Sequence record: OM362897.1
DNA: 64,000 nt
Origin: Escherichia phage SKA64
Strand: one strand, 5' to 3'
Below, piece after piece: positions 20,183 to 49,327 of this stretch. The notes below the pieces were generated by a model. That model saw nothing but the letters and a program-made list of their open reading frames with translations, searched no databases and was not told the DNA's origin. The position numbers and the translations under genes were made by a program. Positions within the stretch are counted from its first letter, which is position 1; every line of letters starts with the position of its first letter.

Positions 20183-20541
20183 GAGAAACAATCGTAGATG
20201 TTGTTATTAATGGTCAACGTTATGTGCCTGTTGTAGAGAAAGCTGAACCAGATGCTTTAGATGTTGTTTTTGAAGACGATGATCTTGGCACTGTTACTGT
20301 ACGTGAATATTTCAGACGACTGCTCTCTACGCTTTGGGAAGAAGAAGATAGTTTCAGTGGAAAACGCCCTTTCGGTAACTCTTGCTGGCAGTTCGATTTG
20401 ATTATTGGTTTGATCGATGCTGGGTACCTGGAAGGTAAAGTTTATCGTGACGAAGATGGTGGTATAGAAGATACCGACTATGATCGTGAAGAAGCAGATA
20501 AGCTCATCCAGGGTCTGATCGCACGTATGTGTTTAGGTTAA
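20179..20541 (+). CDS. hypothetical acidic protein (120 aa)
   Basis: ORF track; AAGGAGGAAAA RBS. Confidence 0.6.
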   Translation: MRETIVDVVINGQRYVPVVEKAEPDALDVVFEDDDLGTVTVREYFRRLLSTLWEEEDSFSGKRPFGNSCWQFDLIIGLIDAGYLEGKVYRDEDGGIEDTDYDREEADKLIQGLIARMCLG

Positions 20542-20542
20542 T

Positions 20543-20911
20543 ATGAAGGTATTAAACTTTTACCATTTAGGCAAAACAATCCCAGAAGGTGCTGTTTATA
20601 TTGGTAGAGCAATGCCACACATGGGGCTAAAAGCCTCCAAGTTTGCAAACCCTTTTAAGTTAAAAGATGATGAACCACGAGGATCAACTATACAAAGGTA
20701 TAAAGAGTGGTTGTGGGAGCAAATTCGTTGTGGTAAGATCACTCTTGAAGATTTATTAGAGTTAGAAGGGAAAGATTTAGTTTGCTTCTGCTCACCTCAA
20801 CCTTGTCATGGAGATGTATTGGTAGCAGCCGTAGCTTGGGCTAGAAAAGAGTGGGACAAAAGGCATCCTACTTATGTAGACAATTATTGGATTTGGGAGG
20901 AGAATTTTTGA
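20543..20911 (+). CDS. DUF4326-like protein (122 aa)
   Basis: ORF track; CFCSPQPCHGDVL motif typical of a conserved phage family of unknown function. Confidence 0.45.
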   Translation: MKVLNFYHLGKTIPEGAVYIGRAMPHMGLKASKFANPFKLKDDEPRGSTIQRYKEWLWEQIRCGKITLEDLLELEGKDLVCFCSPQPCHGDVLVAAVAWARKEWDKRHPTYVDNYWIWEENF

Positions 20912-21261
20912 AAAATATTATTGATGTGGATGTGTTTGGTATCACAACACTACAAGACAAACAAGCAACATTGTATTATCATAAAAAAGAGGACCAAGCT
21001 TACATCTACATCGGGGCAGAAAAGTTTGGTGTCGGAGATATGGTTTTAAATGTTGAAGGAGATCTTCCTTTAGAACAAAAGTTGAAAGTTTTTCGTTTCA
21101 CAGGAGATGTTAAACTAGACGGCGTTATCGCAATCCTACAAGAAGACCATTATTATATGGTAACTTTCGTTACTCCTGCTTTCTCTGGCCTTAATGGAGA
21201 AGAAGCTCTTAATGATGTTATTATCTTAAAGATTGGTAATGCTTTAAACGATGTAAACTAA
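20908..21261 (+). CDS. hypothetical protein (117 aa)
   Basis: start set to TTG at 20908 after GGGAGGAGAA. Confidence 0.5.
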   Translation: MKNIIDVDVFGITTLQDKQATLYYHKKEDQAYIYIGAEKFGVGDMVLNVEGDLPLEQKLKVFRFTGDVKLDGVIAILQEDHYYMVTFVTPAFSGLNGEEALNDVIILKIGNALNDVN

Positions 21262-31048: not shown

Positions 31049-31065
31049 AAAGAGAGGAGAAAAGA

Positions 31066-32040
31066 ATGCAACTTGGTTTCCCCATTATTGATGTAGTTGT
31101 TTTAGTTGGTATTTTAGCATTGTCTATTGGTATCGATTTCTTTGGTCACAAAGAAAATAAAGAAATTTCATTCAAATCCGCAGTTGATTGGTCGATCTTT
31201 TGGATTGGTGTATCATTAGCTTATTATGGTTTTGTATACTTCCAACATGGTGCCGATTTTGCTAACTTGTTTTTAAGTGGATATGTGTTGGAAAAATCTT
31301 TGTCGGTAGATAACTTAGTAGTATTTGTAGCAGTATTCGCAAGTTTTGGTATTAAAAGCACACACTTGCAGCACAAGATTCTACTTTGGGGTATTGCAGG
31401 TGCGATTGTCTTCCGAGGTGTGTTTGTAGCAGTAGGCACTTACTTGTTAAGTTTGGGCTGGTATGTTAATATCTTCTTCGGTGCGGTCATCCTTTTCTGT
31501 GCAGCTAAAATGGTATTTGCTGGAGATAATGACGCAGAAGTTGATTACTCTAAACACTGGGCTACCCGTATTGTTCGTAAACTGTTCCCTGTATCTAATA
31601 AAATGGATGGGGAGAAGTTCTTCACAATCGAAAATGGTGTTCGTGTAGCAACTCCAGCTTTGGTTTGCGTATTCGTGATGGAAATGGTGGATGTAATCTT
31701 TGCAGTAGATTCGGTTCCAGCGGTGATCGCAGTGACACAAGAACCCCTACTTGTATTCTCTTCGATGTTATGTGCAATCTTAGGTCTACGTGCTCTGTTC
31801 TTTGTTCTTAGTGTCGCACTGAAGTATCTGGTTCACTTGGAGAAAGCAGTTATTGTGGTTCTGGTGTTTGTAGGCGTTAAACTGATGTATCACCCGTTTG
31901 CAGAAACATTGCATGAGAAAATGAGTTTCCTGCCAGCACATATTGATCCAACTATTAGTATGTATATCGTGCTTGGTACTTTGGCCCTTGGTGTTATTGC
32001 AAGCTTTATCTTCCCTGAAAAAGAAGAAGCTACTATTTAA
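31066..32040 (+). CDS. TerC/Alx-family integral membrane protein
   Basis: multi-pass membrane protein; LSGYVLEKSLSVDNLVVFVAVF and FGAVILFCAAKMVFAGD blocks resemble TerC/Alx family. Confidence 0.8.
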   Translation: MQLGFPIIDVVVLVGILALSIGIDFFGHKENKEISFKSAVDWSIFWIGVSLAYYGFVYFQHGADFANLFLSGYVLEKSLSVDNLVVFVAVFASFGIKSTHLQHKILLWGIAGAIVFRGVFVAVGTYLLSLGWYVNIFFGAVILFCAAKMVFAGDNDAEVDYSKHWATRIVRKLFPVSNKMDGEKFFTIENGVRVATPALVCVFVMEMVDVIFAVDSVPAVIAVTQEPLLVFSSMLCAILGLRALFFVLSVALKYLVHLEKAVIVVLVFVGVKLMYHPFAETLHEKMSFLPAHIDPTISMYIVLGTLALGVIASFIFPEKEEATI

Positions 32041-32045
32041 TAAAT

Positions 32046-32070
32046 GAGCCTCCTTCGGGAGGCTATTTTA
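32046..32070 (+). terminator. rho-independent terminator
   Basis: AGCCTCC-TTCG-GGAGGCT followed by ATTTTAT. Confidence 0.65.
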
Positions 32071-32082
32071 TAGGAGAGACTT

Positions 32083-32433
32083 ATGAGTAATTTTGATGAA
32101 ATTCAAGAACTTGTTTGGGATTTATCTGGTGATGTGGATTACATTTCAGATTATCTTTCAAAAGTTTACCCTGGGGTAAGCGTTATGATTGTGACCAAAG
32201 ATCCAATTAGTTTGCCTCCCAATGTTGTAGCTTGTTGTGGAAGTGGTTCAGGAGAAGTAGAGCCTGTATCTCGTTGGGAATTAACTAAAGCTGTTTCAAA
32301 ACGAAACGGTGAAGTTTTGAATATTGATATTGAGCAAATATGGACTTCTCCAGCAGCCAAATGGAATGATCCAAATGGTTGGGATTTGTTCTTCTGGGAT
32401 AATGAGACTGATGATGAGGTGTTTTTAAAATGA
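32083..32433 (+). CDS. hypothetical protein (116 aa)
   Basis: ORF track; AGGAGAGA RBS. Confidence 0.6.
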   Translation: MSNFDEIQELVWDLSGDVDYISDYLSKVYPGVSVMIVTKDPISLPPNVVACCGSGSGEVEPVSRWELTKAVSKRNGEVLNIDIEQIWTSPAAKWNDPNGWDLFFWDNETDDEVFLK

Positions 32434-32675
32434 AATACTTGTTGGTTGTGTTTGAAAATATCTGTTTTGCAATAGGGTTGTTTGTTGTAATTTTTGTATT
32501 GACAAGCGTAATCAACGGCAGTAAAGTGAGTTTATACCGAGATGGAGAGCAACTTTATTGCTTCTCTGGAGATTTCAAACACAGATGTATTAATAGCCAA
32601 AACGAGGAAAGCAAATATGAAAAAACTAGCCCTGATTTTAATTGGTTGTATCTTTTTAACAGCTTGCGAGGATGA
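32430..32675 (+). CDS. small membrane protein (81 aa), overlaps next gene
   Basis: ORF track; ATGA start overlap; hydrophobic N-terminus; 3' end overlaps lipoprotein gene by 59 nt. Confidence 0.35.
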   Translation: MKYLLVVFENICFAIGLFVVIFVLTSVINGSKVSLYRDGEQLYCFSGDFKHRCINSQNEESKYEKTSPDFNWLYLFNSLRG

Positions 32676-33054
32676 AACAAATCCTGCACAATACCAACAA
32701 CCTCCTCAACAATACGCTCAACAAGGATCTGACGGAGATACAACTATTATCAACAATGGTGGCGGTTCTAGTAGTAGCGGTGTTGGTGAGTTTGCTACAG
32801 GTATGTTGTTAGGGCATATGATGAGTGGCGGTAGTAATCGTAGCAGTGGGGATTATAACGATAACAGAACGATTATTAATAAGCATTATAATACACCTAA
32901 ACCGAAAACTAATTTTTATGGTAAGCCTAAACAAGAGATAAAAACTTATGAAAAGCCGAGACAAACTTTTAAAACAAATAGTAGCTATACAACTCGTAAA
33001 TCTTACAATAGCCCTTTAAGTAAAAAGAGTTCATCTCGTAGCAAGCGACGTTAA
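32617..33054 (+). CDS. lipoprotein with Gly/Ser-rich linker
   Basis: start ATG 32617 after GAGGAAAG; signal peptide plus lipobox LTAC; GGGSSSSG low-complexity segment. Confidence 0.6.
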   Translation: MKKLALILIGCIFLTACEDETNPAQYQQPPQQYAQQGSDGDTTIINNGGGSSSSGVGEFATGMLLGHMMSGGSNRSSGDYNDNRTIINKHYNTPKPKTNFYGKPKQEIKTYEKPRQTFKTNSSYTTRKSYNSPLSKKSSSRSKRR

Positions 33055-33068
33055 TAAGGAGAAAAACA

Positions 33069-33662
33069 ATGACAATTTCTATTCGTACTTCCATTACAGG
33101 TGTTAAAAGTTTGCCTAATGCTTTGCAAATCACACGTGCTTTGAGGGATACGTTCTCTGCTGTGGATGAGCATAAGATGCTCGATAATCTCTCAAATTGG
33201 CCCTATTTTCATTATTTTAAAAATGAAGACGACGAGTTTATAGACGCTGTTTCTTACGGTTATGATTTCGGTAAGGAGGTTTCCCCTGAAGAATTTGTAG
33301 CTACGGTGTTCCCAAACGGTTTGCCTACTCGCAGTAAACGTAAAAAAGGACCAAAAAACAAGAAACGTGCTACTAATAAAGCTACCATTTTCTTTACTGA
33401 TGGCACACAATATACGATTAAAGACTTTGAAGAGGTATCTTATACAGCAGGTGGGAGTCTTTCTTTCTACACCATCAAAAAACAAAACTATACGTTCAGC
33501 CATGTTTCTAACATGATTGAAATGTTAGTAGAAGATATTGAAAGCGTGGCTGTGTTAGGTATGCATAAAAGCTTTTTAATTACAAATATTTCAGATTTCA
33601 GTGCAAGTTTATCTGGCCCTGATTTTGAAGCCACGACCACGCATTTCGCTTTTAAGGTGTAA
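33069..33662 (+). CDS. hypothetical protein (197 aa)
   Basis: ORF track; TAAGGAGAAAA RBS. Confidence 0.6.
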   Translation: MTISIRTSITGVKSLPNALQITRALRDTFSAVDEHKMLDNLSNWPYFHYFKNEDDEFIDAVSYGYDFGKEVSPEEFVATVFPNGLPTRSKRKKGPKNKKRATNKATIFFTDGTQYTIKDFEEVSYTAGGSLSFYTIKKQNYTFSHVSNMIEMLVEDIESVAVLGMHKSFLITNISDFSASLSGPDFEATTTHFAFKV

Positions 33663-33665
33663 GTT

Positions 33666-34256
33666 ATGCATACCGAGAGAGACTTGCAACTCTTGTGGTG
33701 GGAAGTGATGCAGGAAATAAAAGAAGATTTTCCTGTTTACTACAACATGTTACGTGAAGCAGGATATAAAGCTTGTGTTAGAAACAAAGTGAATAACTCT
33801 TTCGGTTGGTGCAACTACCGAGATAAAATTGTTGTTGTAAATTGGCACTTGCATAAGAACTCCACAAGAGATATGATCGTGGATACAATGAAGCACGAAA
33901 TTGCTCATGCTATTGATGGTTGTATGGGTAAGTTTAGTAGGCACGGTGCTCATTGGCAAAAACTGGCAGCAGAATTAGGGGCTAATCCTAAAGCCACTTC
34001 CAAAGAGCCGTTGAACCACGAATATAAATATGTTCTTGTTCTGGTAGATAGGTTTGCGACAAGATGTGTTAGAGGTTATAATCGTAAACCTAATCGCATG
34101 TACCCAGGTAAGCAACCTAATATGTGGTTGAAATCAGATAAAGAAGGGACCGAAGGAAAATTATGGTTGTATAAATGGGACGATTGGGTTAAAGTAGCTA
34201 AAGAGTACGGTGTTTCACCATATATAAGAGATGCAGAAGAGGAGAATGAAGAATGA
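33666..34256 (+). CDS. SprT-like zinc metalloprotease domain protein
   Basis: HExxH motif in MKHEIAHAIDG followed by HGAHW. Confidence 0.5.
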   Translation: MHTERDLQLLWWEVMQEIKEDFPVYYNMLREAGYKACVRNKVNNSFGWCNYRDKIVVVNWHLHKNSTRDMIVDTMKHEIAHAIDGCMGKFSRHGAHWQKLAAELGANPKATSKEPLNHEYKYVLVLVDRFATRCVRGYNRKPNRMYPGKQPNMWLKSDKEGTEGKLWLYKWDDWVKVAKEYGVSPYIRDAEEENEE

Positions 34257-35365
34257 CAAGTCCATTTTTAAAAGCAGCTACTGGTGGTCAGAAGAAGCCT
34301 GAAATGAGCGTATTTGCTGCAACAACAGATGCAAGTAAATCTGTATTCGCTCCAAGCGTGTTAGATGCCAGTCCTGTTTATGCACCAGCGGCACCGCAAG
34401 AAGTTCCAGTTTTGCCTTCTATGACCCGACAAGAGATTGAAGAGATTGGGGCAGAGGCAGGAACAACCTTGCGTTCCTTGAATGCCGAGGTGTTAAAACA
34501 TCAACGTAGTAATCAAGGCGATCAGATGAGTGAACGACTCACAGCTTTGATTAAACAGGCAAAACAACTTGATCCAAACTCTATTAAACAAAGCAAGGGT
34601 ATTACTAAACTCATTAAAAAAGTTATGGGTATGAAAGAAGACCTGTTCGGGGAGTTTGATAATGTTAATAACCGTATTGAAGAGTTGGTAAAGAACCTTC
34701 AAATGGATATTCGCAAAGAAGAAGATTCCTTGGTATATCTTGAAAAGCTACATCAAGCTATTGGACAATATGCTGCAAGTTTGAACCGAGATATGCAGCT
34801 TCTAACAGCAACCTATGAAAAAGAAGAACAAGCTTTGGCTGCTCTTCCAGAAGATGCAGTAGAACAGCGACAAGTGATCCGAGATACTTTGGATCTTCTG
34901 GAGATTCGTATTGCAGATTTAAAAGCATTGCGCCTACTGTGTGTCCAAATGGGACCGCGTGTACAAGGTATGCAAAAAGTTTCTGCAAGCTTAATGCGAT
35001 CTGCGCGTAACATAGTAAATAATGTTATTCCTGCTTACTCTGCTAACTTCTCAATGTATATCGAGAGCTTACGTCAAATGAAAGCAGCAGAGACGCAGAA
35101 TAACGTTCTTGATGAATTTAACCTGGCAATTAAACTGGGTAGCGATCTTGCCACACAGAATCAGATCGAAGCAGCAGCACTGGCTAACCGTCAAGTGTTG
35201 GATATTGAAACTCTGCGTCACGATCAGGAAAACTTGGTTAAGATGCTGGAAGAAACTAACCGCATCAATACGGAAGCCCGTGCTGCTCGTGTTGATTATA
35301 TTAATGAAGTTCAATCTCTGGAAGACGGGATGGTAGCTGCTGTGAAACGAGGGCTTGGTAAATGA
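34253..35365 (+). CDS. coiled-coil protein, TelA-like candidate
   Basis: 370 aa, largely helical with heptad-like repeats; assignment is contextual (sits in Ter-type cluster). Confidence 0.3.
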   Translation: MTSPFLKAATGGQKKPEMSVFAATTDASKSVFAPSVLDASPVYAPAAPQEVPVLPSMTRQEIEEIGAEAGTTLRSLNAEVLKHQRSNQGDQMSERLTALIKQAKQLDPNSIKQSKGITKLIKKVMGMKEDLFGEFDNVNNRIEELVKNLQMDIRKEEDSLVYLEKLHQAIGQYAASLNRDMQLLTATYEKEEQALAALPEDAVEQRQVIRDTLDLLEIRIADLKALRLLCVQMGPRVQGMQKVSASLMRSARNIVNNVIPAYSANFSMYIESLRQMKAAETQNNVLDEFNLAIKLGSDLATQNQIEAAALANRQVLDIETLRHDQENLVKMLEETNRINTEARAARVDYINEVQSLEDGMVAAVKRGLGK

Positions 35366-40172: not shown

Positions 40173-40188
40173 TATAACGGAGGGGAGA

Positions 40189-40752
40189 ATGATTTATTAT
40201 ATTACTCCCTATCTGACAGGAAATATCGGCAAGGCTATCAATGAAGCCATTGCCGTTCTTCCAGATGATAGTTGGGTGTGTTTAAGAGATACCGATACAA
40301 TGTTCCTCCTACCTGATCAACCATCTATGCTTGAAGAGCTTGTTATGTCAAACCCGCCTTTTGATGTAATAGGTGCAACTTGTAACAGGTTAGGTAGTGG
40401 TTATCAGCTTTTCTCTAACCAAATTAACGATGATCCCGATATTCTAAACCATATAGAATATGCTAAGATTGCAAGAGAATATCATAAAGTGAGTGTTGAA
40501 GAAGTTCCTTTCGGAACACCTCTGGCAGGTTTCTTTTTGCTTTTTAGAAAATCATTGTGGAATGAAATTCCTTTCGAAGAAAAATCTATCCAATTCGACT
40601 TAATTTTCTCTCGCACTTTACATGAAAAAGGAAAGAGGTTAGGATTGATGCGGGGAATGTATCTGTTTCACATTTACAGATTAGGTCAAACAAATCCTCA
40701 ACGGTCTATACATCATTTATTACACTGTCATGATCACAGTAAAACTATTTAG
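40189..40752 (+). CDS. putative glycosyltransferase-like protein
   Basis: ORF track; GGAGGGGAGA RBS; LRDTDTMF possible DxD-like motif; weak. Confidence 0.35.
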   Translation: MIYYITPYLTGNIGKAINEAIAVLPDDSWVCLRDTDTMFLLPDQPSMLEELVMSNPPFDVIGATCNRLGSGYQLFSNQINDDPDILNHIEYAKIAREYHKVSVEEVPFGTPLAGFFLLFRKSLWNEIPFEEKSIQFDLIFSRTLHEKGKRLGLMRGMYLFHIYRLGQTNPQRSIHHLLHCHDHSKTI

Positions 40753-40760
40753 GAGAGAAA

Positions 40761-41444
40761 ATGGAAAATATTAAAATCGGAGTGGGTGTTATCACTGTAG
40801 GTGTCCGTCCACTTAAAGACTACCTTGTAACAGATCCACGTGCAGATTTTCGAGTATTCAACGATCCAGATCGTAAAGGTGTAGCTTATGCCAGGAATGA
40901 ACTTATGCACCAGTTTTATGAAGAAGGTTATGATTATTGGTTTATTTTTGACGATGATTGCTACCCAGTCATGGAGGGATGGGAAACATACTTTGTAGAT
41001 CAAGCTGTCTCTGGAGGATGGGATTTCTTTGGTATGCCGGAGTATTTCAAAGATAAAGTTGTTGGAAGCAAAGGAGAAGTTATTCTCTGGGAACTTGCAA
41101 TGTGTCAATTTGCAATGTATTCTCGTGCCGTTGTTGAGAAGATGGGTTATTTCCGTCCTTACACTCACGGTTATGGTTTTGAAGATGCTGAATGGGGACA
41201 CCGTTTGCAAGCTGCTGGTTTGAATCATGGTATTCAGGCAACACCTTGTCCACTTCGTATCATGGCTTATATCCACCCAGACGATGTTTTTGGAAACAAT
41301 CCTATGCCTTTTGCTAACCTGACAAAAGAAGAGAAAGAGGCTGCTATTGGGATTAACTGGGAAGAATATAAAGCATCTTTAGAGGATATTAAAAATGGGA
41401 AAATCCGAATTTCCTATGAGGAGGCACTAGCACATGTCAAATAA
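40761..41444 (+). CDS. family-2-like glycosyltransferase (GT-A fold)
   Basis: GVAYARNELMHQF, DxD-type FIFDDDCYP, GYGFEDAEWGHRL. Confidence 0.55.
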   Translation: MENIKIGVGVITVGVRPLKDYLVTDPRADFRVFNDPDRKGVAYARNELMHQFYEEGYDYWFIFDDDCYPVMEGWETYFVDQAVSGGWDFFGMPEYFKDKVVGSKGEVILWELAMCQFAMYSRAVVEKMGYFRPYTHGYGFEDAEWGHRLQAAGLNHGIQATPCPLRIMAYIHPDDVFGNNPMPFANLTKEEKEAAIGINWEEYKASLEDIKNGKIRISYEEALAHVK

Positions 41445-42381
41445 AAAATGGTCTAAACTAAAAATTGATGCAAAACCTCACAGCGGTTGTGACTATCATC
41501 GTATTGTTATACCATTTAACAACAATAATATTCAACCTAAGAAAGATGTTGTTGTGTTTAACCGTATCCACTCTAAAGGTGCAGAATACGTTTTATCTTT
41601 GAAACGTCAAGGTGTTAAGGTTGTTGTAGACTTAGATGATTTTTACCAACTTAATCCAGAACATTATTTAGCAAGTCTATACGAGTCAAACACTCATGCT
41701 ATTGTAGCTATGGTTAAGCTTGCTGATGTGGTTATTGTGACTACGGAATATTTGGCATATAAGATCCGTCACTTAAATAGGAATGTTGTTGTGATCCGAA
41801 ATGCACTTCCTTTTGATAGCGGACAATTCACTTTGTCAAATGATCGTTCATCCGGTACCCCTGTTGTATGGGCTGGCGGTGCTAGTCACGAACCAGACTT
41901 ACGACTAGTCTCTAATACTTTCGATGATGAACTTCTTACTATTGCGGGATATGAAGCATCACAAAGCATCACGGGACAAGAGTGGATTAAGATTCGCAGA
42001 AATTTACCAAATGCCAAATATAAAGCCGCTGTAAAAGATTTAGATAATTACATGAGTGTTTACGAAAGTCATGCTATTGCTATAGCTCCTTTGGTAGATA
42101 ATGATTTTAATAATTGTAAAAGTAATCTCAAAATCCTGGAAGCTGGAGCAAAAGGTATTCCAATTGTTTGTTCTAAGGTATTACCTTATTTTAACCCTGT
42201 AGATGCTCGCGCTGTTGCTTACGCAGAGAATAAAGCAGAATGGCATTACGAAATTGTTAAGCTTCTTCGCAATCCAAACTATCGGGAAGATCGTGGCTTG
42301 TTCTTGGCTGAACATGTTCGAACACATTATAATCTGGCAGATGCAAACGAGTTGCGACGCCAGGTTATTGAAAGTTTGTAG
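41434..42381 (+). CDS. putative glycosyltransferase, paralog 1
   Basis: ORF track; shares CD(Y/F)HR(I/V)V(I/L)P, LDD, VWAG, APL(V/I)DN.FNN.KSNLKILEAGAKG with next gene. Confidence 0.4.
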   Translation: MSNKKWSKLKIDAKPHSGCDYHRIVIPFNNNNIQPKKDVVVFNRIHSKGAEYVLSLKRQGVKVVVDLDDFYQLNPEHYLASLYESNTHAIVAMVKLADVVIVTTEYLAYKIRHLNRNVVVIRNALPFDSGQFTLSNDRSSGTPVVWAGGASHEPDLRLVSNTFDDELLTIAGYEASQSITGQEWIKIRRNLPNAKYKAAVKDLDNYMSVYESHAIAIAPLVDNDFNNCKSNLKILEAGAKGIPIVCSKVLPYFNPVDARAVAYAENKAEWHYEIVKLLRNPNYREDRGLFLAEHVRTHYNLADANELRRQVIESL

Positions 42382-42388
42382 GTGAAGT

Positions 42389-43333
42389 ATGGGACAAATA
42401 ATTCTTGACAATCGTAACGGAATCAATTATAGTGTCTGCGATTTCCATAGGGTAGTGCTGCCTTACTCAAGGCAGTTCTCTTCACAACCTAAACACAACG
42501 TTTTCGTTTTTAACGGAGTGCCAACAAAAGGTAAAGAGGGCTTTTTAGCCCTTAAAAACCTAGGCTTTAAAATGGTTATGGATTTGGATGACTCTTTAGT
42601 TATTCCAAAAGGACACATGTTAGAAGGTATTTTTGAATCAGGTATTCGTGAACATTTAAAATGGTTTTTAGAGCACAGCGATCTTGTTACAACTACGACA
42701 CCTGCTTTGCAAGTTGAACTTTCACAATACAATGATAATGTGCACATAATCCCTAATGGTCTTCCTTACGATGAAGGTCAATTTGTGTTGACCCGTGATC
42801 GCTACTCCAAAACTCCATTAGTCTGGGCGGGAAGTGAAACACATAAACAAGATTTGGCTATCTTGCCCGATTTTGGTAAAGATCTTACGATATGTGGTTT
42901 TCGTAGGGATTCTGAAGTTTTAAGTAGTCGTGAATGGTCTGTGATCAGAGAAAATGTAGCACCAACTTGTGTTTATGAAGGTGTAAGACCATATGCCAAC
43001 TACATGGAATCTTACGATGGTCATCAAATCAGTCTTGCGCCATTGATTGATAACGTGTTTAATAATGCAAAAAGCAATCTTAAAATTCTTGAGGCAGGTG
43101 CTAAGGGTTTACCTTTGATCTGTTCTCCTCGTGAGAATTATCATACACAAGAGTTTAAAGATTTGTTATTCTTTGCTGAAACGCCTTCCGAGTGGAAAGA
43201 TATTACGGAATACTTATTAAGTGCTCCCGATGTTTGCATGGAGAAAGGATTAGCATTAGCTAAGTATGTCAGGACTCATTATCACATTGATGTGTTGAAT
43301 GAGCGTCGTAGACTTTTATTTGAGGAGCTATAA
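42389..43333 (+). CDS. putative glycosyltransferase, paralog 2
   Basis: ORF track; tandem paralog of 41434..42381. Confidence 0.4.
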   Translation: MGQIILDNRNGINYSVCDFHRVVLPYSRQFSSQPKHNVFVFNGVPTKGKEGFLALKNLGFKMVMDLDDSLVIPKGHMLEGIFESGIREHLKWFLEHSDLVTTTTPALQVELSQYNDNVHIIPNGLPYDEGQFVLTRDRYSKTPLVWAGSETHKQDLAILPDFGKDLTICGFRRDSEVLSSREWSVIRENVAPTCVYEGVRPYANYMESYDGHQISLAPLIDNVFNNAKSNLKILEAGAKGLPLICSPRENYHTQEFKDLLFFAETPSEWKDITEYLLSAPDVCMEKGLALAKYVRTHYHIDVLNERRRLLFEEL

Positions 43334-43623: not shown

Positions 43624-45402
43624 GTGTCGCACATTATAACTAAATATGGATTTGATGTTGATCTTAGCAAGGAAGGGCATACAGGTTGTCCGCGCTGCAT
43701 GAAAAATGGCAAGGATCGCTCTCGTAATAACCTGATGGTTTATGGATTAGATTCTAATGGAGAGCATAAAGGTGCTAAGTGCTTTGCGTGTGAATACACT
43801 ATTCCTAGCGTAGAATGGTTACGAGAAAATGGTGAAGTTTTAGAAGAAGAGGAGGAGATTGTGGGTTCGGAATTTAATAAACAGATTCATCGTAAAATTG
43901 TTCAAGAAACATCAACCAACCCACGTGGTTATCGAGGCATTAAAGAAAAAGTTTCATCTTTCTATGGTGTTCGTTATGAATACCGTCAGGAAGGGGATCA
44001 GATGGTAGTAGAAAGTTGTTTATATCCAACTACTATCGGTAAAGAGTTGGTTGGTTTTAAGCGTCGTATTCATCCTAAAGATTTCAGTAAACCTATTGGT
44101 CAAGTAGGTAAAGATGTAGATCTTTTTGGACAAATTCGTTTTGCAGACCGTTCTCATACTGTGGTAATTACAGGTGGTGAACACGATGCTCTGGCAGCTT
44201 ATCAAATGCTGTCTGAAAACTTGGACAACAAATATGAACTTCCAGCAGTAGTTAGTGGCACAACTGGTGAAACCAGTATGTATAAACAAGTTCAGGCACA
44301 ATATCCTTTCTTTGAAAAATTTAAGAAGATTATTGTTTGCATGGATAATGACAAAGCAGGTAATGAGGCATTTGAAAATATTGTTAAGGTGCTGCCTCGT
44401 AACAAAGTCTACCGTATGCAGATGGATCTTAAGGATGCCAATCAGTATCTGGAAGAAGGTCGTGCAAAAGATTTCGTAAAAGCTTTTTGGAGTGCTCGTC
44501 TATACACCCCAGCAGGTGTTTATGCTTCTAATGTCTTGTATGAAGCTGCATTAGAATGCTTGGAATCCAAGATGATTACCTTGCCTCCTTTTATGCGTGT
44601 TGCTGCAAATATGCTGGGTGGTGGTTTAGTAGAGGAAGAGATTACAGTCATCCTGGCAAAGACCAGTATCGGTAAAACTTTGATGGTGAATGAGATCACC
44701 AAACATATTATTGTTGCACACCCAGAACATACCCTAGGTATTCTGTCCTTGGAAGCAACTTATAAGAAATATTCTCGTAACCTGTTGTCCTCGTTCCTGC
44801 ATATTCCTCTACACAGGAAAACACCGGAAGAGAAATTTCAAATCTTGGAAGAGAATAAAGAAAAAATCTTAGATTTTTACGAAAGAGAAGATGGATCGCC
44901 ACGTTTTTATGTGTGTGATGATCGTGGAGCAGATGTGGAGTCTATCAAAGAAAAAGTTTTGGAGATGATCATCTATTTTGGAGTAACAATTCTTGTTATC
45001 GACCCTTATTCTGATTTGCTTTCTGGTATGGATGTTCAAGCCCAGGAAGAGTTAGCAACATGGTTGAAGCGCATCATGAAAGAGTATGCTATAACTATTA
45101 TCGTCATCTCACACGTTAAGAAATCGGCTAATGGTGGCAATGAACACTTAACAGAGGACGATGCAATGGGTAGTAGTTTCTTGGCTAAAGGTGCTGGTAT
45201 TACCTTGGCTTTGGAACGAGATAAAGCCGCTGAAGATCCTGTAGAACGTAATACGACTCATTGCTTTATCCTAAAAAACCGTGAGTTCTCGGAAACTGGT
45301 CCGGCAGGGCAGTTTTACTATGACATTAGAACTGCAACTCTGCATGACAAAGAGCAGTATTTCAACAATCCTGCTAATTTGCCTACGGATAGCAACTATT
45401 AA
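43624..45402 (+). CDS. T7 gp4-type bifunctional DNA primase-helicase
   Basis: GTG start; N-terminal Cys4 Zn-ribbon (CPRC...CFAC), TOPRIM acidic motifs (ITGGEHD, CMDNDKAG), helicase P-loop AKTSIGKT. Confidence 0.85.
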   Translation: MSHIITKYGFDVDLSKEGHTGCPRCMKNGKDRSRNNLMVYGLDSNGEHKGAKCFACEYTIPSVEWLRENGEVLEEEEEIVGSEFNKQIHRKIVQETSTNPRGYRGIKEKVSSFYGVRYEYRQEGDQMVVESCLYPTTIGKELVGFKRRIHPKDFSKPIGQVGKDVDLFGQIRFADRSHTVVITGGEHDALAAYQMLSENLDNKYELPAVVSGTTGETSMYKQVQAQYPFFEKFKKIIVCMDNDKAGNEAFENIVKVLPRNKVYRMQMDLKDANQYLEEGRAKDFVKAFWSARLYTPAGVYASNVLYEAALECLESKMITLPPFMRVAANMLGGGLVEEEITVILAKTSIGKTLMVNEITKHIIVAHPEHTLGILSLEATYKKYSRNLLSSFLHIPLHRKTPEEKFQILEENKEKILDFYEREDGSPRFYVCDDRGADVESIKEKVLEMIIYFGVTILVIDPYSDLLSGMDVQAQEELATWLKRIMKEYAITIIVISHVKKSANGGNEHLTEDDAMGSSFLAKGAGITLALERDKAAEDPVERNTTHCFILKNREFSETGPAGQFYYDIRTATLHDKEQYFNNPANLPTDSNY

Positions 45403-45425
45403 GGGCTTCGGCCCTTTTATTAAAA
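45401..45425 (+). terminator. rho-independent terminator
   Basis: AAGGGC-TTCG-GCCCTT then TTATT. Confidence 0.65.
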
Positions 45426-45432
45426 ATACCTG

Positions 45433-45461
45433 TTGACAACTTTACGGAAGGGACTTATACT
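45433..45461 (+). promoter_or_regulatory. consensus sigma70 promoter
   Basis: TTGACA-N17-TATACT. Confidence 0.65.
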
Positions 45462-45494
45462 TGTCTCATCAACCAAACAAGAGGAGAAGTAAAA

Positions 45495-45926
45495 ATGCGT
45501 ATGACAATCGATCTGAATGCAAAAGTTAAAGCTGCTGGTGCTCTGGGTGCTGGTGTTATTAAACACAAACAAGCGTTGGCATTTGCCATCCCACATATGA
45601 TTGTTGAGGATCATCCTGAAGAGTTTGCTGTAAAAGTTGTTGAGAACAATGTCTCTGTTATTGAACATCTTCCAACTGGACGTTCTTACCGTGTTGTTTC
45701 TTCTAAAGGTTTCCGTTTCGATGTAAGCCCTTCTTTCACAAAAGGTGCTGGTCGTAGTAAAGTGGGTATTCTTTCTTACAAATATTATATCGATAAAGTT
45801 GCAGATGGTGTCGCATTCTGTCGTGTAAGTGAAGGTAAAGTAGATATCATCTTTAAAAATACCAAAAACATGGTTATTTCTGACGATGGTAAAGTTGACC
45901 TCACTATTGAGTTCGCTAACAACTAA
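45495..45926 (+). CDS. hypothetical protein (143 aa), likely abundant
   Basis: ORF track; strong promoter and GAGGAGAAG RBS. Confidence 0.6.
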   Translation: MRMTIDLNAKVKAAGALGAGVIKHKQALAFAIPHMIVEDHPEEFAVKVVENNVSVIEHLPTGRSYRVVSSKGFRFDVSPSFTKGAGRSKVGILSYKYYIDKVADGVAFCRVSEGKVDIIFKNTKNMVISDDGKVDLTIEFANN

Positions 45927-45935
45927 GGAGGACTA

Positions 45936-46730
45936 TTGAGCAAGTTGAATACACTTGATCAATATTACACTAACCCCGCTTATGCGGGGTTCTTATGTGA
46001 TAAGATCAAAGAAATTTTTGGAGAGGAAGCTAACTACGTAGAACCATCTGCGGGAGAAGGAGCTTTCTCTTCTTGTTTTAAAAACATAACTTCTTTTGAT
46101 ATTGACCCTAAGTTTGAAGATTGTATTGAGGCAGATTTTTTAGCTCAATCTGTTGAGTCTGTTGGCAGTGTAACTGCTTTTGTCGGTAATCCTCCGTTTG
46201 GAAAAAATGCCAGTCTTGCCATTAAGTTCTTTAACCATTGTGCTGAAATGTTGGATAACGAAGGTGGTATTTGTTTTATCTTGCCTCGCACATTTCAAAA
46301 AATCTTTTTTGCACACAAACTAAATCCCCACATGCATCTTCTTTACGAAGAAGAATGTCCAAAAGGATCTTTTATTCTTCATGGAGAACCTTGGGATGTT
46401 CCTTGTGTATTCCAGATATGGATTAAACGCAACGAGAAGCGTTCTCCCGTTGTTTTAGGAGAGAATCGACTGTTCGTATTAGGTAACAGTAAAGACTACG
46501 ATATAGCCGTTAGGAGAGCGGGAGCAAGTGCAGGTAAAGTGTTATCAGAAGAGGATTCTTTATCTGAAGCATCTACCTATTTTTTAAAAACCTTGACTTC
46601 TGATCTTAAAACGCGTATCATTGAGGCTTACCCGTTACTTAAAGCTGAAGCTAGTAAAACTGCGGGAGTAAGAAGTTTAAGTTTAAAAGAACTTCAGTGG
46701 GTTCTGGAGAACATTAGAAAGGAGGAATAG
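45936..46730 (+). CDS. DNA N6-adenine methyltransferase (orphan)
   Basis: TTG start after AAGGAGG; motif I EPSAGEGAF and motif IV VGNPPFGK. Confidence 0.65.
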   Translation: MSKLNTLDQYYTNPAYAGFLCDKIKEIFGEEANYVEPSAGEGAFSSCFKNITSFDIDPKFEDCIEADFLAQSVESVGSVTAFVGNPPFGKNASLAIKFFNHCAEMLDNEGGICFILPRTFQKIFFAHKLNPHMHLLYEEECPKGSFILHGEPWDVPCVFQIWIKRNEKRSPVVLGENRLFVLGNSKDYDIAVRRAGASAGKVLSEEDSLSEASTYFLKTLTSDLKTRIIEAYPLLKAEASKTAGVRSLSLKELQWVLENIRKEE

Positions 46731-49327
46731 TGAGTAAGTTTACATGGGATATTGAAGCAAACGGATTGTTGAATAATGACACTATTGATTATTTAGCTAG
46801 TCCTTATCGTCTCAAAGACACATTTCAAATGCACTGTATTGTCTTAGAGAACCATGAAACAGGAGAAATAGTAGCTTTCCACGATGGCCCTAAATACATC
46901 TTTGATGGGCGTCCTTATGAAGAGTCAGATGGTAAATACACATATGTTCTTAAAGAGTATGTGGCGCAAGATTACACACATTTTCAACTAAAAGATTTCC
47001 CAGATTTTATTAATCATGAAGGTTATTTTAAAGACAAGCCTGAATATCTGGTTGAAATGGCTGTGGCTCACAACGGTATCAACTACGACTGGTTGGCTAC
47101 AAAACTGTTTTATGGATTAGATTACAGTGTTAAATATAATACGTGGGGCAAAAATAAGGTAAAACTTATTGACTCCTTGATTTTGAGTAAAGTGTTAAAC
47201 CCAGATCGAAAGATTGAGGGCAAATCAGGACATAGCTTGGCAGCACTTTCTCGAAAAGCAGGTGGTGATGTAAAAATAGATTTCCGTAAAGAGATCCCAG
47301 AAGAAGATCGATTTAAGACTTTTGCTGCGGATATGCTTTATTACTGTATCTATGACAACAAAGCCAATACGAGCGTATATAATTACCTTATGGAAGAATG
47401 GGGTGATTATGATAAATGGGAAGGTCCATTTGAACTTGAACAACGGGTAGCAGACATTATTACACGCCAGGAACACCGTGGGTTTGCTTTTAACATGAAA
47501 CAAGCAGAAGAGAACCTTGCTTTTTTGGATGCAGAAATGGAGCGTCTTCGTTTACTCGTTGAGCCTATTTTGCCACCTAAACCAGCAACAAAAGGTTATC
47601 TTAAGGCTTTTATTCCACCTAAGTTGCAAATTAAAAAGAACTTAGAGCCAACTAACCATATGATCAATTTTGCTAAGAAACATGATGGTCATTTGGAAGA
47701 GAGGGATGGCGATTGGTGGTTAGTTATGTTGGGGAAAGAGTGGAAACTGCCAGTTGCAGCAGATGAGCCTCTATGTGATCCTAACATTCCTGCAACATTG
47801 AACGATACAACCCATATTAAAAACTGGCTTGTAGGATTAGGTTGGGTACCGTCTGAATATAAAGATAAAGACTTGACTCTTAAATCTGGCACCAAGATTA
47901 AAAAGAGCGAGGAAGAACTTCAGAAAGGTATTCGAGCTTACGTTGAGCAAACTCTATCTTCTAATTTTTGTCAGGATCGTTGTGATCATCTGGAGTGCAC
48001 ACCGGAAACCCTGGAAAGGAAGATTCAAGAGCGTATAGCAAAAGGTAAAGGTCGCGGTCTTAAAGTATTGACTAACCCATGTTTTACCAAAGGTCAGGAA
48101 AAAGAAATTTGTCCTAACCTGCAAGCTTTGGGTGAGAAGTTTCCTTATGCTACACAGATTGTAGAATACTTAACGTATAAACATCGTAGGAACTCTATTT
48201 TAGGTGGCGGTGCTGATTGGGAAGAAGATGAAGAAGATCAAGAATACGATAAAGGTTTCTTAGCCGCAGTAAGGGCGGATGGGCGTATTCCTACCCCAGC
48301 CGCTACATGTGATGCTGCAACCTCTCGTATGAAGCATAGATCTGTAGCTAATATTCCTCGTGTCACATCTTTGTTTGGATGGGAGATGCGTAACTTGTTT
48401 GGTGTAGAGGTTCCTAAATACTTCCAGATCGGCTACGACTTCGACTCTTTGGAAGCAAAAATTGAATCACACTACTGTTGGCGGTACGAGCCGGAGCCAC
48501 ACGAATATTGTAACGCTCTGTTGTTAGAGAAACCTAACGATGTTCACACAATGATGGCAAAACGTATCACTGAAACTATTGGACGTAAATTTGAACGTAG
48601 TCCTGCTAAATCTGTTAAGTATGGTATTACCTATGGTGCACAAGCCGACAAGGTTGCTAAAACAATTGGTAGCGATAAGTTTACAGGTCAATTAGTGTTT
48701 GATGCTTTCTGGGAAGCTGCATTCCCATTGGCGCGTCTTAAAGAACGTTTAAACGATTTCTGGGTTAAGACTGGTAAACAATATGTTTTGGGTATTGACG
48801 GTCGTAAGGTTCCTACTCGTTCTGCTCACGCGATTCTTAACTCTCTGTTCCAAAGTGGTGGGGTTATCTGTGCTAAACGTGCAATGGTTATTTATGACGA
48901 CATGATCGAAGAAGAAGGACTAAGTGTTGACTTCTTTAAAGATGACTGGAAGAATAAAGACTTCGTGCAACAAATGATTGCATATCACGATGAAGCCCAG
49001 CTTGAAGTTTCTCGTAACCTCGTAGAATTTAAATGGTTTTCACCTGAATCATTAGGTTGGAAGAAAGTAGACGATCCTGAAGAACAAAAGAAAATTGATA
49101 AAGAATGCCTTGCTAAAGTTGAAGAATGGAAGCATAATAAGGAAAAAGAGACGGGACAAATTTGGGCTAACATTCATGAATCTCCCAAAGGTGGATGGTT
49201 TACAGCCTATAGTCGGGCAGGTGAACTTGCTGCCTTAGCTGTTACTAAGGCTGGAGAATTTTACAATCTTAATGTTCAGCTTACTGCCGGATATGATGTG
49301 GGTAATTCCTGGGCATCCTGTCATTGA
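46730..49327 (+). CDS. T7-like family A DNA polymerase
   Basis: 865 aa; 3'-5' exo motif FTWDIEANGLL at N-terminus; GIDGRKVPTRSAHAILNSLFQSGG and C-terminal NSWASCH parallel T7 gp5. Confidence 0.9.
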   Translation: MSKFTWDIEANGLLNNDTIDYLASPYRLKDTFQMHCIVLENHETGEIVAFHDGPKYIFDGRPYEESDGKYTYVLKEYVAQDYTHFQLKDFPDFINHEGYFKDKPEYLVEMAVAHNGINYDWLATKLFYGLDYSVKYNTWGKNKVKLIDSLILSKVLNPDRKIEGKSGHSLAALSRKAGGDVKIDFRKEIPEEDRFKTFAADMLYYCIYDNKANTSVYNYLMEEWGDYDKWEGPFELEQRVADIITRQEHRGFAFNMKQAEENLAFLDAEMERLRLLVEPILPPKPATKGYLKAFIPPKLQIKKNLEPTNHMINFAKKHDGHLEERDGDWWLVMLGKEWKLPVAADEPLCDPNIPATLNDTTHIKNWLVGLGWVPSEYKDKDLTLKSGTKIKKSEEELQKGIRAYVEQTLSSNFCQDRCDHLECTPETLERKIQERIAKGKGRGLKVLTNPCFTKGQEKEICPNLQALGEKFPYATQIVEYLTYKHRRNSILGGGADWEEDEEDQEYDKGFLAAVRADGRIPTPAATCDAATSRMKHRSVANIPRVTSLFGWEMRNLFGVEVPKYFQIGYDFDSLEAKIESHYCWRYEPEPHEYCNALLLEKPNDVHTMMAKRITETIGRKFERSPAKSVKYGITYGAQADKVAKTIGSDKFTGQLVFDAFWEAAFPLARLKERLNDFWVKTGKQYVLGIDGRKVPTRSAHAILNSLFQSGGVICAKRAMVIYDDMIEEEGLSVDFFKDDWKNKDFVQQMIAYHDEAQLEVSRNLVEFKWFSPESLGWKKVDDPEEQKKIDKECLAKVEEWKHNKEKETGQIWANIHESPKGGWFTAYSRAGELAALAVTKAGEFYNLNVQLTAGYDVGNSWASCH

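What the first reader, a model, noticed from the sequence alone, without database searches (positions are those of the whole stretch)
45936..46730. Orphan DNA methyltransferase between primase-helicase and DNA polymerase
Motif I (EPSAGEGAF) and motif IV (NPPF) indicate an amino-methyltransferase with no adjacent restriction enzyme, a typical phage anti-restriction or epigenetic strategy. Target specificity is unknown.
Basis: partly seen in the sequence, partly recalled or inferred. Interest (0 to 1): 0.4.

Follow-up and report, generated by a model that had tools for sequence, protein, structure and literature searches.

The report
Phage GTAC methylase with nuclease-like partner
The gene is a real, already annotated phage DNA adenine methyltransferase, but it is probably specific for GTAC and sits next to a restriction-enzyme-like gene, so it is likely not a lone "orphan".

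Summary
The window is a phAPEC8-like E. coli myovirus (99% identical), where this gene is already annotated as a "putative DNA N6-adenine methyltransferase". Structure prediction, a restriction-modification (R-M) profile match and gene context in bacteria all support a gamma-class (M.TaqI-like) N6-adenine DNA methyltransferase, not an RNA methylase.

Three things go beyond the existing annotation.
1. **Target is probably GTAC.** Bacterial homologues are followed by three unrelated restriction-enzyme families, one being R.PabI, whose characterised members all act on GTAC. These partner types are interleaved in the methylase tree.
2. **The neighbour looks like a restriction enzyme.** The upstream 143-aa ORF (45495-45926) has a PD-(D/E)XK nuclease fold and is a remote homologue of one of those partner families. 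It lies beside the methylase in seven sampled phage groups. Its canonical catalytic residues are replaced.
3. **GTAC counts track the module.**
   - This window: observed/expected 0.31.
   - E. coli: 0.94.
   - phi92, which lacks both genes: 0.81.
   - A sister lineage with the nuclease-like gene but no methylase found: 0 of about 90 expected sites.

"Orphan" is therefore only partly supported. No experiment has tested the specificity or the partner's activity.

The parts
45433..45461 (+). Sigma-70-like promoter (TTGACA, 17 nt, TATACT) upstream of the three-gene unit
   Evidence: It matches 11 of 12 consensus positions. It coincides with the 'putative host dependent promoter' annotated in phAPEC8. 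No terminator-like site was found up to 49700. The match is to a consensus only; function was not tested.
45495..45926 (+). 143-aa restriction-endonuclease-like partner gene (phAPEC8 gp077, PHROG 9938)
45925..45931 (+). Shine-Dalgarno sequence AAGGAGG, five bases upstream of the TTG start
   Evidence: Read directly from the sequence. It overlaps the TAA stop codon of the upstream ORF.
45936..46730 (+). Gamma-class N6-adenine DNA methyltransferase gene (264 aa; phAPEC8 gp078)
   Evidence: It is 99% identical to the phAPEC8 gene annotated 'putative DNA N6-adenine methyltransferase'.
45954..45971 (+). Motif X (LDQYYT, aa 7-12)
   Evidence: D8, Y11 and T12 are nearly invariant in the family. The motif aligns with LEQYPT of METTL5 and Ta1320.
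46041..46067 (+). Motif I, the SAM-binding loop (EPSAGEGAF, aa 36-44)
   Evidence: E36, P37, A39, G40 and G42 are invariant.
46188..46199 (+). Motif IV, the catalytic NPPF (aa 85-88)
   Evidence: N85, P86 and P87 are invariant. The equivalent N87 of M.HpyAXII is essential for activity (PMC2588503).
46326..46727 (+). C-terminal target-recognition domain (aa 131-264)
   Evidence: It co-aligns with the recognition domains of MmeI, M.BseCI, M.TaqI and CamA. It is conserved family-wide without large indels: Q160, R169, R194, G196, G200, G244 and S247 are at least 90% conserved, including in the R-M-linked bacterial members.
46730..49327 (+). Family A DNA polymerase (context); its start codon overlaps the methylase stop codon
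   Evidence: Pfam DNA_pol_A and PHROG 17. The one-base overlap (TAGTG) and the internal AAGGAGG are seen.
43624..45402 (+). Primase-helicase (context)
   Evidence: Toprim_2 plus DnaB_C domains, and PHROG 239.

Best explanation
The ORF encodes an active, M.TaqI-like (gamma-class) N6-adenine DNA methyltransferase. Its target is most likely GTAC, giving GTm6AC. It is one half of a two-gene module descended from a bacterial type II restriction-modification system. The other half is the upstream 143-aa protein, which has a restriction-endonuclease fold. The two genes and the DNA polymerase appear to be transcribed together from a host-type promoter, so the enzyme would be made while phage DNA is replicating. 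The methylase then marks the few GTAC sites left in the genome (66 in this 64-kb window against about 200 expected). That shields them from GTAC-directed attack by host restriction enzymes, and possibly by the phage's own partner protein.

Shown here: the fold, the motifs, the family membership, the gene linkage and the GTAC statistics. Inferred: DNA as the substrate (from homology and context), GTAC as the target, the timing of expression and the protective role.
For: **DNA methyltransferase**
- The AF2 model has pLDDT 94.
- The top Foldseek hits in the PDB are M.BseCI, M.TaqI and CamA.
- The protein matches the PADLOC MTase_II model at E 1.6e-36 over its full length.

**Restriction-modification ancestry**
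- Relatives were found at 295 places among 185,579 species genomes; 79 loci were examined.
- In these, the homologue is followed, usually with overlapping stop and start codons, by one of several small ORF families:
  - c1, in 15-16 loci, matching PADLOC REase_II PDLC03460 (E 1e-12 to 1e-14).
  - c8, in 4-5 loci, matching PDLC03550.
  - c70, in 2 loci, matching Pfam R.PabI at E 8e-16.

**GTAC as the target**
- Every characterised R.PabI-family enzyme acts on GTAC and is blocked by GTm6AC (PMC10273834, PMC2588503).
- The methylase linked to an R.PabI homologue is 35% identical to the phage protein over its full length.
- The partner REase families are interleaved in the methylase tree. For example, a c8-linked methylase is 58-60% identical to c1-linked ones and 46% to a PabI-linked one. 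Swapping partners like this requires a shared target.
- The recognition-domain motifs are conserved across the whole family.
- In host DNA flanking the bacterial loci, GTAC is the most depleted 4-bp palindrome for c8 loci (0.48) and c24 loci (0.45), and the second most depleted for c1 loci (0.80).
- In phages that carry the methylase, GTAC observed/expected is 0.31, 0.28, 0.46 and 0.53. It is 0.81 in phi92, which lacks the module, and 0.94 in E. coli.
- A syntenic sister lineage has zero GTAC in every one of eight loci from six contigs, for example 0 observed against 90 expected.

**Operon**.
Against: - No methylation data or biochemistry exists for this protein or any close relative. Literature searches found none.
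- The GTAC assignment depends on only two R.PabI-linked loci plus indirect statistics.
- The recognition domain is only about 30% identical between the phage enzyme and the R-M-linked bacterial enzymes, and specificity can change at that distance.
- A genome that methylates GTAC has less need to avoid it, so strong GTAC depletion could equally be read as evidence that the sites are not protected.
- The Pfam Eco57I match is below the gathering threshold (15.6 against 25.3 bits), and NCBIfam gives nothing.
- By sequence alone, the catalytic domain is nearest to the RNA methylases METTL5 and Ta1320.
Confidence: 0.6

Rival explanations
1. A complete phage-borne restriction-modification (or toxin/antidote-like) module. 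The 143-aa partner acts on unmethylated GTAC DNA, either cutting it through a non-canonical active site or binding it tightly. It is used against the host chromosome or competing phages. The methylase exists mainly to protect the phage's own DNA from this partner. Lineages that lose the methylase survive only by removing every GTAC from their genome.
For: - The partner has a PD-(D/E)XK fold and is homologous to a genuine REase family.
- It is under purifying selection: the family comprises 34 clusters at 50% identity, with K83, G84 and R87 invariant in 33 of the 33 members aligned.
- It is linked to the methylase in both gene orders across seven sampled phage groups.
- GTAC observed/expected follows a graded series: phi92 with no module 0.81; partner plus methylase 0.28-0.53; partner alone 0.00, meaning 0/90 and 0/81 with no GTAC in any of eight loci from six contigs.
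- In the lineage with no GTAC of its own, a GTAC-directed protein can only act on foreign DNA.
- E. coli DNA is rich in GTAC (observed/expected 0.94).
- Most family members keep an Asp at position 58 (20 of 33) and a Lys at position 66 (27 of 33).
Against: - The positions that align with the D...ExK residues of the c8 family hold V, K/R and V. In the E. coli-phage branch, position 58 is His rather than Asp.
- The protein gives no direct hit to any nuclease profile.
- Phage contigs that carry the methylase without the partner (L003, L004) also show low GTAC, although the counts are small. Host pressure alone can therefore produce depletion.
- Total avoidance of a host restriction site is known in other phages (my recollection).
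- The methylase could lie elsewhere in the sister lineage's genome, since only 20 kb was searched.
Confidence: 0.35
2. A true solitary anti-restriction methylase. The neighbouring ORF would be functionally unrelated (a relic or something else), and GTAC depletion would result only from host restriction systems.
For: - The gene has been annotated this way since 2012.
- The partner's canonical catalytic triad is lost.
- Methylase homologues occur without the partner in other large phages such as GAP32, L003 and L004.
Against: - The partner is kept next to the methylase in seven sampled phage groups, in either gene order and in different genomic contexts. A decaying relic would not be expected to persist this way.
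- The partner's conserved residues argue for a function.
- phi92-like phages infect the same host species but do not avoid GTAC.
Confidence: 0.25
3. An RNA m6A methyltransferase of the METTL5 / COG2263 type acting on host or phage rRNA or tRNA.
For: - In a profile search of PDB sequences, the best hits are Ta1320 (E 1e-4) and METTL5 (E 1e-3), ahead of M.TaqI (0.5).
- JGI names some homologues 'predicted RNA methylase'.
- The phage genus encodes tRNAs (PMC7552041).
Against: - The similarity to METTL5 covers only the Rossmann domain (153 residues).
- The additional 130-residue C-terminal domain aligns with the recognition domains of DNA methylases.
- The protein matches type II R-M methylase profiles over its full length.
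- Homologues are operonic with three restriction-enzyme families.
- The distribution in bacteria is sporadic and often associated with IS1595 elements, not housekeeping-like.
Confidence: 0.03
4. An epigenetic regulator (Dam-like). Methylation would time phage transcription, replication or packaging rather than provide protection.
For: The gene lies in the replication gene block and is translationally coupled to the polymerase.
Against: - The target motif is strongly depleted rather than positioned. There are only 2 GTAC sites across the primase-helicase to polymerase stretch, 43624-49327.
- The family's ancestry lies in R-M systems.
- A syntenic sister lineage (about 70% nucleotide identity) does without both the methylase and the motif.
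Confidence: 0.07

Closest known systems
M.TaqI and other gamma-class N6-adenine DNA methyltransferases (M.BseCI, CamA, the methylase part of MmeI; Pfam Eco57I PF07669)
   Same: It shares the Rossmann catalytic domain, the motif order X-I-IV, an (N/D)PP(Y/F) catalytic loop and a C-terminal recognition domain. The best whole-chain structural matches are to these enzymes.
   Different: It is much smaller: 264 aa against 380-550. Sequence identity is only 11-19%. The Pfam score is below threshold. The recognition domain is a compact version of about 130 residues.
M.HpyAXII / M.PabI / M.CviQI: the characterised GTm6AC methylases that partner R.PabI-type or CviQI enzymes
   Same: It has the same predicted product (GTm6AC), the same gamma-class layout and the catalytic Asn at nearly the same position (N85 here, N87 in M.HpyAXII). 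Members of its family are also followed by an R.PabI-family gene in the same M-then-R order.
   Different: It belongs to a different family. A Campylobacter M.PabI homologue aligns only over aa 6-95 (hhalign 97%), with no similarity in the recognition domain.
Solitary phage methylases such as T4, T1 or P1 Dam and the BASEL Drexlerviridae methylases
   Same: They are phage-encoded adenine methylases thought to counter restriction (PMC8594841).
   Different: Those enzymes target GATC or similar motifs, which are not depleted in their genomes, and they have no nuclease-like neighbour. That statement rests on my general knowledge. Here the predicted target is one of the two most depleted 4-mers, and a restriction-enzyme homologue is adjacent.
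Virus-encoded restriction-modification systems (Chlorella virus CviQI and others; phage P1 EcoP1I)
   Same: In these, a virus carries both R and M genes, with R used against host or foreign DNA and M protecting the virus's own DNA. CviQI also recognises GTAC. These points are from my general knowledge; PMC2588503 mentions M.CviQI as a GTAC adenine methylase.
   Different: Here the R-like protein lacks the canonical catalytic residues and its activity is unknown. The host is a bacterium and the virus is a lytic myovirus.
METTL5 / Ta1320 (COG2263) RNA m6A methyltransferases
   Same: They share an NPPF catalytic motif, an N-terminal L(D/E)QY.T motif and a very similar Rossmann domain.
   Different: They are single-domain proteins of about 200 aa with no recognition domain, act on rRNA and are not linked to restriction enzymes.

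Membership tests
Gamma-class N6-adenine DNA methyltransferase (M.TaqI-like) | Class I Rossmann-fold SAM-dependent methyltransferase domain | tested here: met
Gamma-class N6-adenine DNA methyltransferase (M.TaqI-like) | Motif I glycine-rich SAM loop and motif IV (N/D)PP(Y/F/W) | tested here: met
   EPSAGEGAF is aa 36-44 and NPPF is aa 85-88, both invariant in the family.
Gamma-class N6-adenine DNA methyltransferase (M.TaqI-like) | Linear order X-I-II-III-IV...VIII followed by a C-terminal recognition domain | tested here: met
   The motif positions follow this order. The C-terminal 130 residues co-align with the recognition domains of MmeI (246 aa aligned), M.BseCI (231), CamA (236) and M.TaqI (218).
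Gamma-class N6-adenine DNA methyltransferase (M.TaqI-like) | Score above the curated threshold of the Pfam family (Eco57I PF07669) | tested here: not met
   15.6 bits against a gathering score of 25.3. NCBIfam gives no hit. Full-length matches to the PADLOC MTase_II models do reach E 1.6e-36 and 4e-28.
Gamma-class N6-adenine DNA methyltransferase (M.TaqI-like) | Transfers methyl to N6 of adenine in double-stranded DNA | not testable with these tools
   This is inferred only, from homologues that are operonic with type II restriction enzymes.
Solitary (orphan) methyltransferase | No cognate restriction-enzyme gene adjacent or elsewhere in the genome | tested here: inconclusive
   The adjacent ORF 45495-45926 has a PD-(D/E)XK fold and is homologous to a partner REase family. 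However, its canonical catalytic residues are replaced.
Type II restriction-modification system | Adjacent, co-oriented methylase and endonuclease genes | tested here: met
   The two ORFs are 9 bp apart on the same strand and share a promoter-like site. The linkage recurs in seven sampled phage groups.
Type II restriction-modification system | Endonuclease with an intact catalytic motif (for this fold, D...(D/E)xK) | tested here: not met
   The columns aligned with the c8 family's D, E and K/R hold V, K/R and V. The family-wide pattern is D/H58...K/R66 instead.
Type II restriction-modification system | Cleavage of unmethylated target DNA and protection by the cognate methylation | not testable with these tools
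   The only evidence is indirect: GTAC is absent from the lineage that has the R-like gene but no detected methylase.
M.PabI / M.HpyAXII family (GTm6AC) | Homology over the whole protein, including the recognition domain | tested here: not met
   hhalign against a Campylobacter M.PabI homologue aligns only aa 6-95.
M.PabI / M.HpyAXII family (GTm6AC) | Cognate partner of an R.PabI-family restriction glycosylase | tested here: met
   This holds for family members, not for the phage gene itself. In L054 and L052 the methylase is followed by a Pfam RE_R_Pab1 protein (E 8e-16). The L054 methylase is 35% identical to the phage protein.
METTL5 / COG2263 RNA m6A methyltransferase | Single-domain protein of about 200 aa without a nucleic-acid recognition domain; housekeeping distribution | tested here: not met
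   The protein has an extra conserved C-terminal domain. Its distribution is sporadic and linked to mobile elements and R-M genes.

The most novel reading that the evidence does not exclude
Lytic enterobacterial myoviruses (phAPEC8-like, rV5-like and their marine and metagenomic relatives) may carry a domesticated type II R-M module. Its restriction-enzyme-derived protein, with a rewired active site, would attack or block unmethylated GTAC DNA belonging to the host or to rival phages. The phage would protect itself either with the GTAC methylase plus site depletion, or, where the methylase is lost, by purging every GTAC from its genome.
Probability: 0.35. Interest if true: 0.75.

Novelty: new variant of a known kind. 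Interest (0 to 1): 0.55.

Why it matters
On its own the methylase is routine and already annotated. What matters is the combination found here.

- **A testable specificity.** GTAC is a concrete prediction for a methylase family with about 2,400 members, spread across rV5-like, phAPEC8-like and many uncultured phages, several of which are therapy candidates.
- **The "orphan" label may hide a partner.** A remote restriction-enzyme homologue sits next door and is invisible to Pfam and PADLOC.
- **A natural comparison across lineages.** The series runs from no module, to both genes, to the nuclease-like gene alone, and the phage's own GTAC content tracks it from normal to zero.

If the partner acts on GTAC DNA, this would be a virus-carried restriction-like weapon in common coliphages. 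It would also be a clean example of two alternative routes to self-immunity: methylation or site loss. If the partner is inactive, it is still an unexplained, conserved ex-nuclease.

Tried and rejected
- **RNA methylase idea.** I followed it because Ta1320 and METTL5 are the best sequence matches in the PDB. I rejected it on the extra recognition domain, the R-M profile match and the restriction-enzyme neighbours.
- **PF26055.** This family is precomputed on some homologues, but I could not reproduce or name it with the Pfam copy available, even at E 10.
- **Membership of the M.HpyAXII/M.PabI family.** Rejected, because only the catalytic domain aligns.
- **phi92 gp160 as an equivalent of the 143-aa ORF.** It is unrelated. 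The phi92 gp155 methylase is also unrelated (motif IV lies near its N terminus).
- **Direct profile searches of the 143-aa protein** against Pfam, PADLOC and PDB-derived sequence profiles gave nothing. Only profile-profile comparison and the fold search were informative.
- **The c1 restriction-enzyme family** has no match to PDB sequences or plasmids. It shows no similarity to gp077 (3% probability).
- **Literature.** I searched for methylome or RsaI-digestion data on rV5-like and phAPEC8-like phages and found none.
- **Host copies.** There is no DNA-level copy of the module in 5,426 complete E. coli genomes.
- **BASEL restriction sensitivity.** It does not bear on GTAC, because the six systems tested were EcoKI, EcoCFT_I, EcoRI, EcoRV, EcoCFT_II and EcoP1_I.
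- **Model coordinates.** I could not inspect them, so the spatial clustering of E38, D/E50, H/D58 and K/R66 in the partner model remains unchecked.

Full report
**1. The observation**

The ORF 45936-46730 (+) exists and encodes 264 aa from a TTG start. AAGGAGG lies at 45925-45931, and the TAG stop shares one base with the GTG start of a family A DNA polymerase. EPSAGEGAF (aa 36-44) and NPPF (aa 85-88) are present. The window is a phAPEC8-like Phapecoctavirus, an E. coli myovirus of about 150 kb. The 7-kb region around the gene is 99% identical to phAPEC8. In that phage the gene is gp078, annotated "putative DNA N6-adenine methyltransferase". Other records call it hypothetical, or "DarB-like anti-restriction". 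One detail was missed: a 143-aa ORF (45495-45926) lies between the primase-helicase and the methylase.

**2. What the protein is**

Curated libraries are nearly blind to this protein.
- Pfam gives only a sub-threshold Eco57I match (15.6 against 25.3 bits).
- NCBIfam gives nothing.
- PHROG 5172 is labelled "unknown function".

The family is large, with 2,422 homologues of about 250-290 aa, and it is conserved along its whole length, including the C-terminal half.

By sequence, the catalytic domain is closest to the RNA methylases Ta1320 and METTL5, so I tested an RNA-methylase reading. The AF2 model (pLDDT 94) argues against it.
- MmeI, M.BseCI, CamA and M.TaqI align over 218-246 of the 264 residues.
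- The top Foldseek hits in the PDB are M.BseCI, M.TaqI and CamA.

The motif order (X, I, IV, then a C-terminal recognition domain) is that of the gamma class. PADLOC's R-M-derived MTase_II model matches over the full length at E 1.6e-36.

**3. Context in bacteria**

A scan of one genome per species found relatives at 295 places among 185,579 species, a sporadic distribution. I examined 79 loci. In many of them the methylase is followed, with overlapping stop and start codons, by a small ORF from one of several unrelated families:
- c1, about 215 aa, in 15-16 loci. It matches PADLOC REase_II PDLC03460 at E 1e-12 to 1e-14.
- c8, about 160 aa, in 4-5 loci. It matches REase_II PDLC03550 and has a clear D-x(9-10)-E-x-K/R motif.
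- c70, in 2 loci. It matches Pfam R.PabI PF09522 at E 8e-16, above threshold.
- c24, in 3 loci, unidentified.

An IS1595 transposase often sits just upstream. The family is therefore the modification half of mobile type II R-M systems. That settles DNA as the substrate as far as sequence analysis can.

**4. Predicted specificity**

- All characterised R.PabI-family enzymes (R.PabI, R.HpyAXII, R.CcoLI) excise adenine from GTAC and are blocked by GTm6AC (PMC10273834, PMC2588503, PMC4615327).
- The methylase linked to an R.PabI homologue in L054 is 35% identical to the phage enzyme from end to end.
- The partner types are interleaved in the methylase tree. A c8-linked methylase is 58-60% identical to c1-linked ones and 46% to a PabI-linked one. 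The second PabI-linked methylase groups with other c8-linked ones. Exchanging restriction partners requires a common target.
- The recognition-domain motifs (VP..FQ.W, RRVG..AG, T.G.RS) are conserved in all of them, including the phage protein.
- GTAC is the most depleted 4-bp palindrome in host DNA flanking the c8 loci (28 observed, 59 expected) and the c24 loci (23 observed, 51 expected). It is second most depleted at c1 loci (167 observed, 209 expected).

I therefore predict GTm6AC, with a probability of about 0.65. The family is not the M.HpyAXII/M.PabI family, because only the catalytic domain aligns. M.RsaI is an m4C enzyme (PMC6256690).

**5. The neighbour**

The upstream 143-aa ORF (gp077, PHROG 9938) has no profile hit of its own. 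Even so, it lies next to the methylase in seven sampled phage groups.

| Lineage | Arrangement |
|---|---|
| This window / phAPEC8 | R-like then M |
| Klebsiella phage 05F01 | R-like then M |
| rV5-like FFH2 | M then R-like, in a different genomic context |
| Metagenomic L091 | R-like then M |
| Marine TARA L095 | R-like then M |
| L097 | R-like then M (M cut by the contig end) |
| L108 | R-like then M |

- The family profile hits a c8 restriction enzyme (E 1e-4), and the c8 profile hits gp077-family members in return (3e-7).
- With 33 family members, hhalign against c8 gives 97% probability, E 1e-10, over 110 columns. Controls against c1 and against the methylase give 3% and 0.4%.

The methylase is thus flanked by a descendant of its ancestral restriction enzyme.

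The catch is the active site. At the columns where c8 has D, E and K/R, this family has V, K/R and V. The family keeps the PS..KG.GR loop (K83, G84 and R87 invariant) and has its own pattern: D at position 58 in 20 of 33 members (H in the E. coli-phage branch) and K at position 66 in 27 of 33. The family is small, with 34 clusters among 1.84 billion proteins, and it is clearly under selection. Whether it cuts DNA cannot be decided here.

**6. GTAC content tracks the module**

Expected counts use a second-order Markov model.

| Genome or contig | R-like gene | Methylase | GTAC observed/expected |
|---|---|---|---|
| This window | yes | yes | 66/211 = 0.31 |
| phAPEC8 (31 kb) | yes | yes | 0.28 |
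| Klebsiella phage 05F01 | yes | yes | 0.46 |
| FFH2 (rV5-like) | yes | yes | 0.53 |
| phi92 (sister genus) | no | no | 0.81 |
| E. coli K-12 (100 kb) | - | - | 0.94 |
| Sister lineage L099 / L100 | yes | none found in 20 kb | 0/90 and 0/81 |

- In this window GTAC is the second most depleted of all 256 tetranucleotides. It is also 8 standard deviations below dinucleotide-preserving shuffles.
- phi92 has instead an unrelated methylase, gp155.
- The sister lineage is syntenic and about 70% identical in nucleotide sequence. Its order is primase, gp077-like gene (50% identical), an unrelated 112-aa ORF, then the polymerase. It has no GTAC in any of eight loci from six contigs, despite hundreds of GTA and TAC trinucleotides.

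This independently points to GTAC as the sequence the module concerns. It also fits a model in which the R-like protein is harmful to unmethylated GTAC DNA. The alternative is that host GTAC restriction alone drives both depletion and methylase retention. Two methylase-only contigs also show low GTAC (10/22 and 4/11), so the alternative is not excluded.

**7. Expression and role**

A near-consensus sigma-70 promoter (45433-45461, 11 of 12 positions) precedes gp077, and no terminator-like site follows before the end of the polymerase gene. Together with the overlapping stop and start codons, this suggests co-expression with the replication genes. That is inference, not demonstration.

BASEL data show that Vequintavirinae and their relatives are exceptionally sensitive to six tested R-M systems (PMC8594841). 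None of those systems targets GTAC. The methylase is therefore not a broad shield, which fits a narrow specificity.

**8. Verdict**

- The ORF and both motifs are confirmed.
- The methyltransferase call is right and already known.
- "Orphan" is only partly supported.
- "Specificity unknown" is replaced by a concrete GTAC prediction.

The methylase itself is a new member of a known kind. The conserved pairing with a rewired restriction-enzyme homologue, and the relationship with GTAC depletion, make the module a new variant worth a bench test. Everything beyond fold, homology, linkage and counts is inference.

Noticed in passing
L099 1-20432, L100 1-19104 (also L093, L094, L101-L104): A metagenomic sister lineage of this phage is syntenic and about 70% identical in nucleotide sequence. 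It has not a single GTAC in any of eight loci from six contigs (0 observed against 90 and 81 expected in the two longest). It keeps the nuclease-like gene but has a 112-aa unknown ORF where the methylase should be.
   Followed up: partly
window 40186-43333: Four consecutive glycosyltransferase genes (phAPEC8 gp071-074) lie just upstream of the replication genes. The literature notes a dTDP-rhamnose pathway in this genus. What gets glycosylated is unknown, and relatives of these phages remain sensitive to restriction.
   Followed up: no
window, whole 64 kb: GGCC (observed/expected 0.30), CCGG (0.42) and CTAG (0.46) are also strongly depleted. GATC (1.08) is not.
   Followed up: partly
window 46730-49327: The DNA polymerase gene is uninterrupted here. 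In several relatives (EF1-1, ESCO5, ukendt, phi92) it matches in two pieces spanning 3.3-3.6 kb. This suggests an inserted element (intron, intein or homing-endonuclease gene) in those genomes.
   Followed up: no
L089 25513-26244 (phi92 gp155): phi92 lacks this methylase and its partner. It carries an unrelated methylase with motif IV (DPPY) near its N terminus. In phi92, CATG rather than GTAC is the most depleted palindrome (0.42).
   Followed up: partly
L105 20419-21192 (Klebsiella phage 05F01): The methylase homologue is annotated as a 34-aa ORF plus a 200-aa 'DNA methyltransferase'. A single 258-aa alignment covers 20419-21180, so the start codon appears to have been miscalled.
   Followed up: partly
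GenBank MG0656xx records (hits H37, H77, H81, H85, H142): Records named 'Campylobacter phage' carry sequence nearly identical to rV5-like and phAPEC8-like E. coli phages. They are probably mislabelled or derived from mixed lysates.
   Followed up: no
L001 776-7404; L009, L010, L036, L080 upstream of the methylase: In bacteria the methylase-plus-restriction-enzyme pair often sits directly downstream of an IS1595-family transposase. In Poseidonibacter it lies inside an island that splits an amino-acid permease gene, next to a type I hsdM/hsdS pair.
   Followed up: partly
window 1-64000: There are no tRNA genes and no Rfam family matches anywhere in the window, although this phage genus is reported to encode 10-13 tRNAs elsewhere in the genome.
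   Followed up: yes
window 31060-35359: By correspondence with phAPEC8 gp052-057 and with the Pfam hits on L099, this stretch encodes tellurite-resistance-like proteins (TelA/TerD type) in a lytic phage. Their function there is unexplained.
   Followed up: no
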